From contig OZ260664.1 in assembly GCA_965285935.1 (NCBI GenBank), positions 79,980,001 to 80,044,000 on the forward strand: a stretch of 64,000 nt of DNA, in the 5' to 3' direction. The stretch is from Ophelia neglecta. Lineage: Eukaryota. Positions 9,001 through 54,000 of the stretch are shown piece after piece (positions within the stretch are counted from its first letter, which is position 1; the number at the start of each line of letters is the position of its first letter). Position numbers: made by a program.

Positions 9001-12000
9001 TGGGCCACATTGTATCTTATATGAATGGTCATTTTGAACTTGTATGGCCCTATCAAATAGAAGGAGATATCCCCTTAATTTAGGTGTTTACTCAGAACAC
9101 TAATAAATTGTTGGGGTCCTTATGCATTTGATTAATCAAAGGGATTATTTAAAATCACTTCAAAACATCGGTCAATCTGTTGGCCCATAGTTTTAGTGAA
9201 AAAACGGTACATCCTTAGACTCATGCTCTTGGATATTAAAATGCCTGTATTTGAAAAGTAGAAGGGAACTATTGTGGTTTTGCTGAGTTAAAAACATAAG
9301 GAGCAACAGTTAAATATTTATTATTTAACTTATTTATTTTCAATATTAGATCTATCTCTCTTTGTCACCCTAAAAAATAAACGAAATTTTAGTACACTAC
9401 TTCATTTATACCTGTAGATTAATATATGAATTACAACAAACCTAGTAGACCCAGTGCTACTTTTCTTCATACATTCAGCAGTTTCAGAGAAGTTGTTTCG
9501 GATACCTGCAGCGATAGATGATATATATGCAACTTTTCTACTCGATTGTGCCACTTACTTTGAGCATGTGGGGCACATGACACACTTATTGAGTAGAACA
9601 GACACAGCTTCGGGCAGATGAGATGCACAGATGCAACTGATAAGTAGAAATTTAAGCAAATATGAGCTACAAGTTATAGTACCTATTGCAGATATGTGGT
9701 GGGGATAAATGTAATTTGAGCATGAGATGCCATGTTAATTTTGGGCACTTCTATATATTTAAATGCTGACCTAGATTGGTCTGTCTGTTGCTTTAGGTAC
9801 AGGCCAATTACTCCATGGCTTCATTAAATAGTAAAAGTCCTTATACTGGATTATTAATGAAAACAAAACAAAAGGGCCGCCATATTCATGCATAATTTCC
9901 ATGTCAAGATAGACATACAAAAATTTCTGATCACTAATAGGAAGTCATATGTAAGGATTCTCCAGGTGACATTAAATTCGACCTTGACCTCTTTCAATGT
10001 CAATTTGAGTAAAATGATTTTTAACACATCTGCTTCACGGTGTTATATAGTCATATAACGTAATTCTATTGGCCACTAAGAGGAAGTCACATGCAAGGAA
10101 CCGAATGAATACTATTGATTTGACCTTCCCACTCTTTTTTCAAGGTAGATGCGAGAAATGGATTTTTCAATAGAGCTAATTTGCTTAATGGTGCTAAGTA
10201 AGTATATAAGCAGATATTTAAACTAATGCACCAATTAAAGCACTTACGGAGATGTAAAACCCCGGGCCAGACCTTGCAAACCAATAATAATAAATAATTA
10301 ATAACTCGATCGAACACAACAGGATATGTAATTCCGTCTATATGATCCAGCAATAAATTGTTAATGTTAGGTCCATTTTCACTAGATAATTTGGATTTCT
10401 TTTCTTTCGAGGATCAACACTATCAAAAATCTCAAAACCTATGGATACTAGATACGATTTTAGTATTCAGCATTCGTGATAGTCTACGCCAGAAAACCAG
10501 TAAGAATTAAATATTTATTATTGAATTTATTCCAAAAGTAGCAAAGTATTACAATATCTGGCTAGATACAATGATACACTTTTTATACTGCTCATCTGAT
10601 AAGGCAAATAGCGTGTCCATTCATGCATAGAACATAGCAATCCCCATCAGCAAGATAAGCACAACAGTATTTTGTATAGCTCCAAATAAATTATATTTAG
10701 ATATAAAGCCCTAGTTCTTTCTACAACACGTCACTTAATATTTAAAAACTTAGATGTAACATGTAATATATGTAATCCAAATTCCGTCGCACCGGGAGTA
10801 AAGTTATGGGCGAAATTAAAATTTTCAAAAAATTAGTAATGAGTCAGTTTCCAGCCCCTATCTAAGCATGTGCACCTTTTACATTTACAAAAAATATCAT
10901 ACGCTTGAAAAATTGCAAGTCTCTGGAAAGCCTTATAAAAGGAAAGTGTATGTTTCAAAATACATGCACGTGTTTTTTCTGTTGATATAGACAGCACAAA
11001 ATTTTCTAAAATAGACTTTACATGACATGTGTATTAATAATTAACCTGCAACTTAGTTTAATTTCATGCATTCCGACTTTCATCAGCATTTTGTAAATAT
11101 ATTTTCCTAGGTAAATCATTATGTATATTTTCGAGATAAGCCGTACACGTGTATACCATTATTGCCTTACTCCCTTAGGGATTGCTGATTCGTGTGATTT
11201 CACAGCATGATATCGACTTGTCAGTTTGTTATAATTAGTGAATAATGTTAAGCATTGATTAGATAATAAGGACTGTGCTCTACATATAACATTATACAGT
11301 TGGTTTAGCACCACCATCATGGAAAGAGGTATATCAAGTACATACATCTTCATATAATAATATAAATCTATATACAGTATTTAACTCATGTTTTTGACGT
11401 CGTTAGTTAGAAGCGTGTTGTTTACATGCTGAAGGTTGTTATAATGCAGTGCAACTGTGATAAAAATACCGAAAACAAATAAAAGTTTTGGAATTTCAAA
11501 ACGAATTTAAAATTCTTTTTAGATCTAGTCTAAAGTCTAAAAGTGTAAAATTAAAGTGGTTGCAATATTTTAAAACAGCAACCTGTCCAATAGTTTCATT
11601 ATAGACAAAAGCGCTAATATAATCAATCACTTTTTAGTTGTGACATGTGTCAGCATTGTATATAAATACAAAATGGATATATTTCTATTCAAACAAATTC
11701 ATTATCAGTGGTCACGTCAGTTTTAAACGTCAAATAATCCTATACTGTCTCTTGTTTCATAGATTCTTTTCCAACTGCGAAAATATGGTGCAGCACCGTG
11801 TAATGAAGGTGTGCACACAATCATCCGCCTCTAATCTATACTGATACAAGAAAAGTCCAGCCTTTCATACAATGTTCAGCTTTCATTGCCACTATCTTTC
11901 CCATTCCTTTCAATAACCATCAATTGTTAGCAAAAGTTTGAGTAAAATTGTGGAAGTAGGGACCTCGTTGCGAATTGTAAATACTTTAGCAACGGGAGCT

Positions 12001-51000: not shown

Positions 51001-54000
51001 TGATAATTTTCTTTTTCCGATCCGATCTCCGCGTTCACCATAATCAATACGTCAACTAGGGTAATTAAAACATTACAGAAGTCCACATGATGACTTGACT
51101 CCGGCTGTTAACAACAATGTTCACCCCTAAAAGGAAACTCGATACCGGTTTTCTACCAACAACGTGACGATAAAGGTGTCCGTTGCAGATGGTGCCAGGA
51201 CACTCTGACAACTCAGTCATTGTTTTGTCTGTGCAGCACGATCAATCAACCGAACTATTTTGCCAAATCACGTAAAGAGAGTTTGAAGAAAAACAATTTT
51301 CGAAACCAAACTCAACCAAGTGTGAACTTTTACAATTGGTCGATGCATGCGTTTATCTCAATAGTTTGAGAAGCTTGAACTCGATCAATCGAACGGCCGC
51401 TAGCAATTTTGTTTAAACTTTAGCTTAACGCAATTTAAGTCAGTACAGTGTCGTCCATTTATGAACCAGGTTAGATTTTTTACACTATTTACAGGTGGCA
51501 AGAAAACAAACGGCCATTTATTTAATGAATCAACATTGCCTGTATTATCAATCAACCTCAGGCTGCATTCTTGTATTAAAAGTGTATATTCTCTTGCACC
51601 ACCTTGAAATACGCTGTCGTAATAAGTCATAATAGACCTTCGATGTTAAACTGACCATAATATCATTTAGATGATTTGTTACAATAATTGGTAGTTTAGC
51701 TAATTAGTAACTCGTGTAACAGATGGTGTGTGACCTCTAAGAGCCTCAGTTTGAAGGTTTGACACAGCCAGGCTGCCTGTCACTGAACGAGGGCCTATAC
51801 AGTAACCTGGATAGATAACATACATGACAACCCAATATAGTGTGCAAAAAGAGAAGAAATAGTCTATGTATTAAGCTACTCACCTGCTGAGAATTTTCTG
51901 GTAAAATCCTGGTTTTCGATTATACAATCTAATCCTGTTTTCGAATTCATGACTGCTTTAACACAGGCAACACATCCAAGTTGTAAAAAGGTATCCACTA
52001 CCCTAGGCGAATTCTTCTCGCACAATTTAGACAAGGCTTTGATGAGTATTCCCAATCCATTGTGACTGAGGAACTGTAACATCCATTCTCGAGAGCTGTT
52101 CTCCAATGTTTTCTTTAAGTTGGTATATGTTCCTAGGGTTGGAGAACGCAGTGTGCGGACAAGATAGGCGAAGTGCTGCTCTTCGTTGTTAACTACTGCT
52201 ATCGTTGGTTTGCTACTGTCAATACGCGACAGCCCGCTGGAATGAAGGTCCAGGCGACCAATTGAAACCCTCCTCGCCAACACGTTCCACTTGGACGCTC
52301 TTCTGTCAGGCTGGTGCGCTCCTTCGTCTTCTGTCGTCTGCTGCTCTACGGGAAACGTCCGTTTGTCCTTCTGGCTTATGCTTTCTTCGTCTCCCTCGTC
52401 GATTGTACTGGAAACAAAAGGCACATTTACATAAGTTAGATTGGTAATAACACATAAAAAAGTGCGTCCTAAGTTTGTTAAACCCAAGAATTTGATTCTT
52501 CAACACAGGTGGTTGCTGTACTAACGAAGAAATACTTGTGAACTTAAAAGAGCGGAGGTGTACAATCACTTTTTGTTAAATTATTTCCCGTATTCGTCAT
52601 TTCACCTAGGGGGATGCCAATACATATTTGAGGTTAAGCCCCGTGGGTGTATTTCAGACTTGTCTTTTTGTGCAGTCGATGTGATTATTGGCTTTTGTAT
52701 GGAAAGAACCCCGCTGTTAAGTCGCTAATTAACTTATTGTGTAGTCACTGTGTGTATGTCGCAACAAGATCCAGCTGATAAACGTCATCATTTATCTCAC
52801 TATGAAACTTACAAAGGAATGGCATATACTCGGCAAGTTTGCCACTCACTGTATTAATGGGTGGAACTAGACACATATGTTCAGTTCATGTACAACGACT
52901 GCAAATAGCACCATTCCTCAAAGTGGTATAAGCCTGTACATGTATGTATGCGTTATATAGTATGATCCAAAATCACACTATGCTGCAATCCGTTCATGTA
53001 AATGTAATACGGTATATTAAAATGTGTGTTGGGGCGCGCAGACATGCCCTTCAGCACGGTTTGTCATACATGCTCTATGTGCAGGATCTTAATAAATTAT
53101 GGTACATATCTAGCCTAGCATGTGATTAAAGTGATAATTACACACAGCTTTGATTAAAGACCCGAGATTCTGCGAGGTTCTTAATCCTACGCAGGCGGTA
53201 GGTATGAATGTCGTGGGCTTTTGTGTAATTCCCGCCTCGTGAATCAAATACAATTGAAGTCAAATCAACAATAGAGGTCATACATAAATGAAGTTCTATT
53301 ATCATAACGGACAAGGCAAATTTTGTTTATCACTAAACTAAATGATCATGTACTTAAACGTGTAGCAGTTACCACGAGTTTTTAAATGCTAATGCAATAT
53401 GTCCTTTAGCCAAATCAAATCCAGAAAGCTTGTTCTGTACTGTCCTGCATAACGGCATTTTCTAAGTTAGTACAAGTAATATATCAAATAGGTTTATTGC
53501 TGTTTCCTTGCTTTAAAGCTTTAATAAAATGCTTTAAGCTATCACTAGCATACACAGACTTTAAATTAATTATTGATAGGACCAACAGGTCTTACACGGT
53601 GCGCACAATAGTAATTTTAACGACTTTTTATTGCACAATTTCAAATGAATAACAGACAAATTGGACCCACAAATCTTATACGAAATGATTATATAATATA
53701 TTACGCATTGATATTGAAAAGTTAAGAGGACAAAATATACTATATTATACGCGATTTCCTCCAAGTGAAGCGTATAATCAAGTTCGAAACCGGAGAAATT
53801 GATTTATAAAGAAAATCCGTGCAGAATCATTGAAAATGATAAATGATTATTATCATTTAGATCTATTATGTTGTATTATAAAATGCCTATTTTTAAGGTT
53901 GCCGCTTGGCTACAACATATTAAAGATGGGTTACTAACTGATTACAAGCATAGTTAGAGGTTTTGTTCCAATTGGCTTTGCTATCTTCGCCAATGATATC

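What the first reader, a model, noticed from the sequence alone, without database searches (positions are those of the whole stretch)
11986..52407. Hybrid inverted formin: INF2-type DID and DAD combined with a Form3/FHDC1-type FH2 and long basic tail
Seen: a DID/DD closely resembling INF2, FH1, FH2, IVDKLLGDIRGGF, then ~1250 aa of disordered tail ending in a very basic S/T/P-rich region. Known: vertebrate INF2 has DID plus DAD/WH2 and a short tail, whereas FHDC1/INF1 lacks a DID and has a long microtubule-binding tail. From recall, this FH2 (GKRSLNVNIFL, GAERLRGLLKILPE, LGNAEKFFLQLI, LTEIRANKP) looks most like insect Form3/FHDC1-type sequences. Inference: an autoinhibitable, microtubule-binding formin that may preserve the ancestral INF architecture that vertebrates split between two paralogs.
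Basis: partly seen in the sequence, partly recalled or inferred. Interest (0 to 1): 0.65.

Follow-up and report, generated by a model that had tools for sequence, protein, structure and literature searches.

The report
Ordinary invertebrate inverted formin gene
This is a normal invertebrate (probably annelid) member of the inverted-formin family of actin regulators, built like its many annotated relatives in worms, molluscs and arthropods, and it is not a hybrid of two formin types.

Summary
On the minus strand, 12 colinear exons (51884-52407 down to 11986-15797) have GT-AG borders and matching phases. They encode DID, DD, FH1 (5 polyproline runs), FH2, the motif IVDKLLGDIRGGF and a further 1235 aa. 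The last 350 aa have pI 11.8, net charge +50 and 43% S/T/P. The ATG exon was not found.

The "hybrid" reading fails. Compared exon by exon, the DID, DD, FH2 and tail exons all match the same proteins best: lophotrochozoan INF/Form3 orthologues, then arthropods, with fish INF2 last. Among solved structures, both the DID exons and the FH2 exons score best against INF2.

Of the 120 listed FH2 relatives (1065-2634 aa), 109 carry a DID-type Pfam domain. The DAD-like motif, the basic C-terminus and a near-terminal short motif recur across protostomes. Published work already gives DID-DD-FH1-FH2 as the INF layout, even in choanoflagellates, and calls FHDC1 a vertebrate innovation.

Verdict: a new member of a known kind, of low interest. 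Open points are homology of the tail to the FHDC1 microtubule-binding domain (no named FHDC1 sequence was available), transcript proof of splicing, and tail function. Exons were never joined; all searches ran exon by exon or with stored database orthologues.

The parts
51884..52407 (-). Exon E2: acidic N-terminal stretch plus the first part of the DID. It has no ATG and opens with the third base of a split codon.
   Evidence: Pfam Drf_GBD 48.9 bits. PDB best and only family INF2, 81 bits. Splice sites.
48036..48151 (-). Exon E3: DID (38 in-frame residues)
   Evidence: tblastn with 6 stored orthologues and fish INF2. 55-61% identity to protostome orthologues, 32% to fish INF2. GT-AG borders.
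34552..34711 (-). Exon E4: DID/FH3
   Evidence: Pfam Drf_FH3 36.6 bits. PDB: INF2 35 bits against DIAPH1 19..
28207..28240 (-). Exon E5: 34-nt micro-exon needed to keep the reading frame between E4 and E6
   Evidence: Weak tblastn match (E 0.5-0.7) in the right order. 9 of 10 residues identical to a scallop orthologue. AG/GT borders and phase arithmetic.
22093..22237 (-). Exon E6: linker and dimerisation region
   Evidence: 53-61% identity to orthologues, 26% to fish INF2. No Pfam hit on its own.
19672..20487 (-). Exon E7: end of DD, FH1 (19948-20133, five polyproline runs) and start of FH2 with the two lasso tryptophans
18146..18396 (-). Exon E8: FH2
   Evidence: Pfam FH2 68.1 bits. PDB: INF2 65 bits, DAAM1 36, DIAPH1 29.
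17690..17861 (-). Exon E9: FH2 (GNFLN motif)
   Evidence: Pfam FH2 43.1 bits. 77% identity to Paralvinella P0006.
16712..16890 (-). Exon E10: FH2
   Evidence: Pfam FH2 52.2 bits. PDB: INF2 43 bits against DIAPH1 21.
16334..16454 (-). Exon E11: FH2
   Evidence: 58-62% identity to annelid and mollusc orthologues. No Pfam hit alone.
15954..16212 (-). Exon E12: end of FH2
   Evidence: Pfam FH2 22.7 bits, profile positions 316-372. 64% identity to P0006. The acceptor is set at 16212 because the upstream AG would give a stop.
11986..15797 (-). Exon E13: DAD/WH2-like motif, 1235-aa tail and TAA stop (11986-11988)
15694..15732 (-). DAD/WH2-like motif IVDKLLGDIRGGF, 22 residues into E13
   Evidence: The same motif class just after the FH2 in fish INF2 (2 of 2), molluscs (23 of 24), nemertean (1 of 1), chelicerate (1 of 1), Owenia, and insects (16 of 83).
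13303..13368 (-). Mid-tail acidic/serine motif (DEGFESES ... SQRTSMSS), a lophotrochozoan signature
   Evidence: The SQRTSMSS-type pattern occurs in molluscs (21 of 24), named annelids (2 of 2), unnamed annelid-like tails (8 of 8), nemertean (1 of 1), insects (0 of 83) and fish INF2 (0 of 2).
11989..13038 (-). Basic S/T/P-rich C-terminal 350 aa (pI 11.8, net +50, 26 SP/TP sites). Includes the near-terminal SFITK (12055-12069) and the terminal cysteine (11989-11991).

Best explanation
The locus is the orthodox orthologue, in what is probably an annelid genome, of the single protostome inverted formin. This is the INF subtype, called Form3 in insects and variously labelled INF2, FHDC1 or formin-J by automatic annotation.

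Shown: one colinear, splice-consistent gene of at least 12 coding exons and about 2196 codons. Its layout is partial G/DID, DD, FH1, FH2, a DAD/WH2-like motif, and a long low-complexity tail with a very basic end. Each part is most similar to the same part of the same orthologues.

Inferred from what is established for formins and INF2:
- The protein dimerises through the DD and FH2.
- The FH1 recruits profilin-actin.
- The FH2 nucleates and caps growing barbed ends.
- The DID binds the DAD-like motif to hold the protein in a closed, less active state.

More speculative: the basic, SP/TP-rich last 350 aa bind an acidic surface, either microtubules or membranes, under phosphorylation control. 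This would tether actin assembly to that structure, as reported for the Form3, EXC-6 and FHDC1 class.
For: Gene model: GT-AG borders and matching phases at all 11 introns. Orthologue matches are contiguous across exon borders.

Domains: Pfam Drf_GBD, Drf_FH3 and FH2 on 7 of 10 ORF pieces.

Subtype: PDB best hits are INF2 for both FH2 and DID exons. E8 gives 65 bits against DAAM1 36 and DIAPH1 29. E10 gives 43 against 21. E2 hits INF2 only, at 81 bits. E4 gives 35 against 19.

Orthology, exon by exon against 130 stored proteins:
- FH2 exons are 64-80% identical to Paralvinella P0006, 55-65% to insects and 36-49% to fish INF2.
- DID and DD exons E3, E4 and E6 are 55-67% identical to protostome orthologues and 26-35% to fish INF2.
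- E2 scores 108 bits to a mollusc (38% over 170 aa) and 86 bits to fish INF2 (42% over 98 aa).

Trees used 28 of the 130 proteins plus single-exon window rows. All 5 FH2 fragments, and 4 of 5 DID/DD fragments, fall on the protostome side of a 100% SH-aLRT split from fish INF2 and outside the arthropod clade.

Same architecture elsewhere: 109 of the 120 listed FH2 relatives carry Drf_FH3, and all 6 proteins scanned do.

Tail homology:
- With composition correction, 22 of 24 molluscs, the nemertean, the chelicerate and all annelids give HSPs at E<=1e-3.
- Net charge of at least +20 in the last 350 aa occurs in 82 of 83 insects and 23 of 24 molluscs, against -14 and -27 in fish INF2.
- The near-terminal motif occurs in 79 of 83 insects, 12 of 24 molluscs and 2 of 2 named annelids, against 0.005 chance matches per 90 aa elsewhere in the insect proteins.

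Literature passages.
Against: - There is no transcript evidence. The ATG exon is missing, and the 16 scripted candidates are unconvincing.
- No single annotated annelid protein in hand shows the whole layout. P0006 starts in the DD, and Owenia P0014 starts inside the DID.
- One DID fragment (E3, 38 aa) was placed inside the insect clade, and most deep forks are unresolved.
- The trees are 'quick' searches with short fragment rows and fish INF2 as the only non-protostome. They cannot say whether the gene is nearer INF2 or FHDC1.
- The DAD-like piece alone found no INF2 chain in the PDB, only weak designed ankyrin proteins. The DAD and terminal-motif patterns were written after seeing the sequences.
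- With composition correction, insects give no tail HSP (0 of 83).
- The last 350 aa find only 12 proteins among 1.84 billion representatives, all short annelid-like tail ORFs.
- No biochemical function was tested.
Confidence: 0.9

Rival explanations
1. One reading: a hybrid or mosaic formin that joins an INF2-type regulatory module (DID and DAD) to a Form3/FHDC1-type FH2 and tail. The parts would then have different affinities, or the combination would be unusual.
For: The DID exon E2 found only fish INF2-like proteins in the word-indexed search for longer proteins: 2 hits among 388 candidates, capped at 2000 aa. Annotated insect Form3 proteins lack an equivalent of E2 (best 30 bits). Only 16 of 83 carry the DAD-like motif. 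So against Drosophila Form3 the gene does look 'more INF2-like' at both ends.
Against: Lophotrochozoan and chelicerate orthologues have the E2 equivalent, the DAD-like motif, the Form3-like FH2 and the long tail in one protein. All exons rank the same groups in the same order. DID and FH2 fragments sit in the same part of their trees, except the 38-aa E3. Both DID and FH2 exons score best against INF2 among solved structures. The 2000-aa cap excluded most true orthologues, which are 2075-2309 aa.
Confidence: 0.03
2. Two neighbouring genes read as one. A DID/DD gene (52.4-22 kb) and an FH1-FH2-tail gene (20.5-12 kb) would be transcribed separately, as the truncated database models P0006 and several insect models might suggest.
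For: No RNA evidence was available. Introns between the DID exons are long (up to 13.3 kb). P0006 and 10 further listed relatives lack a DID-type Pfam domain.
Against: Exon E7 itself carries the end of the DD, the FH1 and the start of the FH2 in one open exon. The intron phases from E2 to E7 fit only when all exons, including the 34-nt E5, are used. 109 of 120 relatives have both parts in one model.
Confidence: 0.04
3. The gene is real, but the tail has nothing to do with microtubules. It would be a fast-evolving disordered spacer carrying short linear motifs for other partners, or a membrane anchor.
For: There is no Pfam family in the tail. The model is of low confidence. The ESM Atlas gave no usable neighbour, with a best score of 0.76. 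Passages of PMC12045603 attribute Form3 and INF2 microtubule binding to FH1-FH2, not to a tail. Annelid-type tails end in a conserved cysteine.
Against: A strongly basic, SP/TP-rich C-terminus is kept across protostomes. FHDC1 has its microtubule-binding domain at the extreme C-terminus. This is an analogy in position only.
Confidence: 0.5

Closest known systems
Protostome INF-subtype formins (Drosophila Form3 and its orthologues). Examples: Paralvinella palmiformis LSH36_2g04042 (P0006), Owenia fusiformis (P0014), Mactra antiquata 'FH2 domain-containing protein 1' (P0018), Tachypleus (P0025).
   Same: The order of parts is the same. FH2 exons are 64-80% identical to P0006. The DID and DD exons E3, E4 and E6 are 49-67% identical to the protostome orthologues; E2 is 35-38% to mollusc and chelicerate. 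Total length is similar (about 2196 aa against 2075-2309). The DAD-like motif, the post-DAD conserved block, the basic C-terminal 350 aa and the near-terminal motif are shared.
   Different: Compared with Drosophila-type Form3, this gene keeps the N-terminal DID exon and the DAD-like motif. PMC12045603 says Drosophila Form3 lacks a DAD. It also carries the lophotrochozoan mid-tail motif and an annelid-only terminal ...SSRC. The tail is only 21-34% identical outside annelids.
Vertebrate INF2
   Same: INF2 is the best solved-structure match for both the DID and the FH2 exons. The DAD/WH2-like motif sits at the same place. The N-terminus is truncated in the same way, with only the distal part of Drf_GBD matched.
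   Different: Identity is lower in every exon (26-49%). The INF2 tail is short and acidic (net -14 and -27 in the last 350 aa of the two cod proteins) and shares no HSP with this tail.
Vertebrate FHDC1 (INF1)
   Same: FHDC1 is an INF-subtype FH2 according to PMC5047451. It has a long C-terminal extension whose extreme end binds microtubules (PMC4713130 and PMC6080654). This parallels the position of the basic end here.
   Different: FHDC1 lacks a DID and any regulatory domain, and it is described as unique to vertebrates. This gene has DID, DD and a DAD-like motif. No sequence comparison was possible, because no named FHDC1 sequence was returned by the capped searches.

Membership tests
INF-subtype (inverted) formins | FH2 domain that groups with INF FH2 domains rather than with DIAPH, DAAM or other subtypes | tested here: met
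   Pfam FH2 matches exons E7-E12. In the PDB, INF2 is well ahead of DAAM1 and DIAPH1 for E8 and E10. The nearest named proteins are all INF/Form3 orthologues. No tree with other subtypes was built.
INF-subtype (inverted) formins | Proline-rich FH1 directly N-terminal to the FH2 | tested here: met
   Five polyproline runs (7, 7, 8, 8, 5) lie in E7 residues 119-180, with 61% proline.
INF-subtype (inverted) formins | N-terminal DID without a complete GTPase-binding G domain (a 'truncated Drf') | tested here: inconclusive
   The DID is present. Drf_GBD profile positions 59-160 of 188, and Drf_FH3, are matched, and the only PDB hits of E2 are INF2. What lies upstream is unknown, because the first coding exon was not found.
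INF-subtype (inverted) formins | Dimerisation domain between DID and FH1 | tested here: inconclusive
   E6 and the start of E7 are 45-61% identical to the matching orthologue regions, which lie within their Drf_FH3 hits. E6 alone has no Pfam hit, and no fold was made.
INF-subtype (inverted) formins | DAD/WH2-like motif C-terminal to the FH2 | tested here: met
   The motif lies at 15694-15732. The same pattern follows the FH2 in 2 of 2 fish INF2 proteins and 23 of 24 molluscs. Caveats: the pattern was written from the window's own motif, phmmer of the 60-aa piece found no INF2 chain, and binding was not tested.
Protostome Form3-type orthologue group | All parts most similar to the same set of protostome proteins (congruence) | tested here: met
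   Exon-by-exon blastp and fragment placement. The one exception is the 38-aa E3.
Protostome Form3-type orthologue group | Long tail ending in a strongly basic region with a near-terminal S-F-hydrophobic-basic motif | tested here: met
   Net +50 here. At least +20 in 82 of 83 insects and 23 of 24 molluscs. SFITK lies at 12055-12069, and the motif occurs in 79 of 83 insects and 12 of 24 molluscs (a pattern written after the fact).
FHDC1 (INF1) type | No DID, DD or DAD; constitutively active | tested here: not met
   DID, DD and a DAD-like motif are present. The FHDC1 features are taken from passages of PMC4713130.
FHDC1 (INF1) type | C-terminal microtubule-binding domain homologous to FHDC1 boxes 4-5 | not testable with these tools
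   No named FHDC1 sequence was obtained. phmmer of the last 350 aa against 1.84 billion representatives gave 12 hits, all annelid-like tails at 30-60% identity. This is only a weak negative for a low-complexity region.
Chimeric / domain-shuffled formin | DID and FH2 with different nearest relatives | tested here: not met

The most novel reading that the evidence does not exclude
The basic C-terminal region of the protostome INF tail would be the homologue, or at least the functional equivalent, of the C-terminal microtubule-binding domain of vertebrate FHDC1. The ancestral bilaterian INF would then have been an autoinhibited formin with a DID, a DAD and a microtubule-binding tail. Vertebrates would later have divided these between INF2 (regulation) and FHDC1 (tail). 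Lophotrochozoan genes such as this one would be the least derived living examples. Only the tail part of this idea goes beyond what is in print. My two searches for it found no paper making that claim, and the one review most likely to discuss it (Hegsted et al. 2017) is not held.
Probability: 0.15. Interest if true: 0.45.

Novelty: new member of a known kind. Interest (0 to 1): 0.13.

Why it matters
It matters little as a discovery. The result removes a false lead: the gene is not a mosaic, and its layout is the common one for invertebrate inverted formins.

It has modest value as an annotation. It gives a complete exon model, less the first exon, of an INF gene from a lineage in which the two named database models seen here lack part or all of the DID. 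It also shows that lophotrochozoan INFs keep both the full DID and the DAD-like motif, which the best-studied invertebrate model, Drosophila Form3, lacks. That makes them better material than flies for asking how INF autoinhibition and the long tail work together.

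Tried and rejected
- Joined protein: the spliced protein was never assembled, searched or folded as one sequence. Every search used single exons or stored database proteins. A whole-protein search or fold of this gene is therefore missing.
- Review of inverted formins (Hegsted et al. 2017, PMC5752148): not held. My guessed id for Higgs and Peterson 2005 was not held either. Supplements of Pruyne 2016 (S1 Table of domain layouts, S1 Text alignments) are closed and may already list annelid and mollusc INF layouts.
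- DID exon search for longer proteins: only 2 cod INF2-like hits, because the search stops at 2000 aa. It says nothing about orthologues.
- FHDC1: none of the three word-indexed searches returned a vertebrate FHDC1. The top 120 of the 400 hits are all protostome.
- Last 350 aa against 1.84 billion representatives: 12 hits, all annelid-like tail ORFs. The new ids P0131-P0138 were not fetched.
- ESM Atlas on the last 350 aa: best score 0.76, below any useful level.
- phmmer of the DAD piece against the PDB: no formin hit.
- Search for the ATG exon: 16 candidates with an ATG and a phase-2 donor upstream of E2, none convincing. The only acidic one (60415-60434, minus strand) lies inside the intron of the neighbouring DPH3-like gene.
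- Rfam and tRNA scans of the window: nothing.
- Not run: complex prediction for DID with DAD, because the window's DID is split over exons and an orthologue stand-in would pass by likeness to solved DID-DAD structures. Also not run: the genome-contig scan (prokaryotes only) and fold search (the model is too poor).
- First version of the terminal-motif pattern was badly written and undercounted; it was replaced.
- Nothing in the window or in the fetched proteins was taken for human.

Full report
**What is there.** The window contains no N and nothing in it was taken for human. A stop-to-stop ORF listing shows, on the minus strand between 52.5 kb and 12 kb, a colinear series of open pieces that read as a formin.

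Pfam on ten of these pieces gave:
- Drf_GBD, 48.9 bits (51879-52499).
- Drf_FH3, 36.6 bits (34499-34717).
- FH2 on five pieces: 68.1, 52.2 and 43.1 bits above the gathering score, and 30.5 and 22.7 below it, as expected for fragments.
- No family on three pieces, among them the 1289-aa last piece.

tblastn with stored orthologues added two small DID exons and showed that the matches abut one another in orthologue coordinates. Reading the borders gives twelve exons:

| Exon | Coordinates |
|---|---|
| E2 | 51884-52407 |
| E3 | 48036-48151 |
| E4 | 34552-34711 |
| E5 | 28207-28240 |
| E6 | 22093-22237 |
| E7 | 19672-20487 |
| E8 | 18146-18396 |
| E9 | 17690-17861 |
| E10 | 16712-16890 |
| E11 | 16334-16454 |
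| E12 | 15954-16212 |
| E13 | 11986-15797 |

All 11 introns have GT-AG borders, and their phases fit only if every exon, including the 34-nt E5, is used. The exons hold 2189 in-frame residues plus seven split codons, about 2196 codons.

The spliced protein was never built, searched or folded as one sequence, and that step is left out of this report. Lengths are sums of numbers.

**Check of the observation.**
- The quoted FH2 motifs are in E8 and E10, and IVDKLLGDIRGGF lies at 15694-15732.
- The FH1 has five polyproline runs.
- After the motif come 1235 residues. The last 350 have pI 11.8, net charge +50, 43% S/T/P and 26 SP/TP sites. The first 919 residues of E13 are mildly acidic.
- An AlphaFold2 model of 1200 tail residues, from an 11-row alignment, has mean pLDDT 37.7, with 1045 residues below 50. 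Only isolated helices appear, and none in the basic end. This fits disorder but, with so shallow an alignment, does not prove it.
- The one gap is the start. E2 has no ATG before the DID and opens with the last base of a split codon, so at least one upstream coding exon exists. A scan for ATG-to-donor candidates gave 16, none convincing.

**What it is.**
- The tail exon finds nine relatives. The best is an unnamed 1291-aa tail ORF at 58% identity. The best named one is a 1925-aa FH2 protein of the polychaete Paralvinella palmiformis (P0006).
- Using the FH2 part of that stored protein as query, 400 proteins pass E<=1e-10. The 120 listed are all protostome: annelid, nemertean, mollusc, bryozoan, horseshoe crab and insect. 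They are 1065-2634 aa long and are named without consistency as form3, FH2 domain-containing protein 1, inverted formin-2, formin-J or FHDC1-like. Of the 120, 109 carry Drf_FH3.
- Six proteins scanned directly (Mactra, Owenia, Lineus, Tachypleus, Drosophila biarmipes, cod INF2-like) all show Drf_GBD, Drf_FH3 and FH2. Their tails have no family apart from a weak IBB match in the Drosophila protein.

**The hybrid test.** Each exon was compared on its own with the 130 stored proteins. The ranking is the same for the regulatory and the catalytic parts.

| Exon(s) | Protostome orthologues | Fish INF2 |
|---|---|---|
| FH2: E8, E9, E10, E12 | 67, 77, 80, 64% to Paralvinella; 55-65% to the best insect | 49, 36, 39, 37% |
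| DID/DD: E3, E4, E6 | 55-67% | 32, 35, 26% |
| E2 | 108 bits to a scallop (38% over 170 aa) | 86 bits (42% over 98 aa) |

Annotated insect proteins have no equivalent of E2.

Among solved structures, INF2 is the best match for FH2 exons and DID exons alike. E8 gives 65 bits against DAAM1 36 and DIAPH1 29. E10 gives 43 against 21. E2 hits INF2 only, at 81 bits. E4 gives 35 against 19.

Quick IQ-TREE trees were built from 28 of the 130 proteins, with window exons as separate fragment rows. All five FH2 fragments, and four of five DID/DD fragments, sit on the protostome side of a 100% SH-aLRT split from fish INF2, outside the arthropod clade and nearest the annelid, nemertean and mollusc rows. 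The 38-aa E3 was placed inside the insect clade, and most deep forks are open.

So the parts do not have different affinities. The FH2 looks like Form3 because Form3 is the orthologue, and the DID looks like INF2 because INF2 is the best-known INF that still has a full DID.

**The DAD-like motif and the tail.**
- A pattern written from the window's motif is found just after the FH2 in 2 of 2 fish INF2, 23 of 24 molluscs, the nemertean, the horseshoe crab, Owenia (but not Paralvinella), 5 of 8 unnamed annelid-like tails, 16 of 83 insects and 0 of 1 bryozoan. A passage of PMC12045603 says Drosophila Form3 lacks a DAD. On its own, the 60-aa piece finds no formin in the PDB.
- With composition correction and masking, the tail gives HSPs at E<=1e-3 to 36 of 130 proteins: 22 of 24 molluscs, all 10 annelid-type proteins, the nemertean, the horseshoe crab, 2 of 7 unnamed, and 0 of 83 insects, 0 of 2 fish, 0 of 1 bryozoan. 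The HSPs concentrate on the first 175 residues and on residues 800-870.
- The mid-tail motif is lophotrochozoan: 21 of 24 molluscs and 0 of 83 insects.
- The strongly basic end is general in protostomes. Net charge of at least +20 occurs in 82 of 83 insects and 23 of 24 molluscs, against -14 and -27 in the two cod INF2 proteins.
- A short S-F-hydrophobic-basic motif lies within the last 90 residues in 79 of 83 insects, 12 of 24 molluscs, 2 of 2 named annelids, the horseshoe crab and the bryozoan. It almost never occurs elsewhere in those proteins. The pattern was written.
- By phmmer, the last 350 aa reach only 12 of 1.84 billion representatives, all annelid-like tails at 30-60% identity.

**Literature.** I saw passages only, not whole papers or figures, and supplements are closed.
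- Pruyne 2016 (PMC5047451) treats FHDC1 and INF2 as one INF subtype present in every animal examined. It reports that DID trees recover the same subtypes as FH2 trees, and it notes only one supported within-subtype split, in FMN.
- Pruyne 2017 (PMC5628938) gives DID-DD-FH1-FH2 as the INF layout, including choanoflagellates, with some isoforms lacking DID and DD.
- The Form3 paper (PMC12045603) states that Form3 has DID and DD.
- Copeland and co-workers describe FHDC1 as lacking regulatory domains, as having its microtubule-binding domain at the extreme C-terminus, and as unique to vertebrates (PMC4713130 and PMC6080654).
- The review of inverted formins that would bear most directly on this question is not held.

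**How it most likely works.**
- Shown: the parts list above.
- Inferred from established formin biology: dimerisation, profilin-actin delivery by the FH1, nucleation and processive capping by the FH2, and DID binding to the DAD-like motif to close the molecule.
- Speculative: the basic, phosphorylatable end docks on microtubules or membranes.
- I give about 0.85 to actin assembly activity, 0.6 to DID-DAD autoinhibition and 0.35-0.4 to microtubule binding by the tail. None of these was tested here.

**What stayed open.**
- The placement relative to FHDC1, because no named FHDC1 sequence was obtained.
- Any homology of the tail to the FHDC1 microtubule-binding domain.
- The first exon.
- The source species. 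An annelid is inferred from the nearest named proteins and from the terminal ...SSRC, shared with Paralvinella and 7 of 8 unnamed tails but not with Owenia, molluscs or insects.

**Verdict.** This is a well-read observation with an over-read interpretation. The gene is an ordinary, apparently intact lophotrochozoan-type INF/Form3 orthologue. It is a new member of a known kind and of low interest.

Noticed in passing
window 450-2276 (+): A single 608-codon open frame encodes ankyrin repeats (Ank_2, 80 bits) followed by a SOCS box (29 bits). It looks like an ASB-type ubiquitin-ligase adaptor gene, convergent with the 3' end of the formin.
   Followed up: partly
window about 58846-58980 and 62974-63050 (+): Two exons of a DPH3/KTI11-like CSL zinc-finger protein lie upstream of the formin on the opposite strand (Zn_ribbon_CSL, 48 and 32 bits). 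The formin's missing first exon probably lies between 52.4 kb and this gene, or inside its intron.
   Followed up: partly
window 11989-12000 (-), end of exon E13: The protein ends in ...TTKSSRC. A terminal S-S-R/K/L-C is shared by Paralvinella P0006 and 7 of 8 unnamed annelid-like tails, but by none of 24 molluscs, 83 insects or Owenia. It is not a CAAX box. A conserved last-residue cysteine might be a lipidation or redox site. The two cod INF2-like proteins end in a C-x-x-x sequence.
   Followed up: partly
window 13303-13368 (-), exon E13 residues 810-831: An almost invariant acidic/serine motif (DEGFESES ... SQRTSMSSTL) sits in an otherwise fast-evolving tail. It is shared by annelids, nemertean and 21 of 24 molluscs and is absent from 83 insects. 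It probably binds a partner or is a multi-site phosphorylation module, but no partner is known.
   Followed up: partly
stored proteins (insect Form3 models): Annotated insect Form3 proteins start at the equivalent of the last 21 residues of exon E2, and none matches the rest of E2 (best 30 bits). Only 16 of 83 keep the DAD-like motif. Either insects lost the first DID repeats, or an upstream exon is routinely missed in annotation.
   Followed up: no
stored protein P0030 (Saccostrea, 2634 aa): This model carries RING, B-box and NHL domains in front of the FH2. It is most likely a neighbouring TRIM-type gene fused to the formin by the annotation pipeline.
   Followed up: no
window 57521-57577 and 58205-58300; 5986-7159: Short tandem repeats of period 20-40 lie in the region upstream of E2. 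Open frames around 6-7 kb read like reverse-transcriptase remnants (a YADD-type motif) but gave no Pfam hit at E<=0.01.
   Followed up: partly
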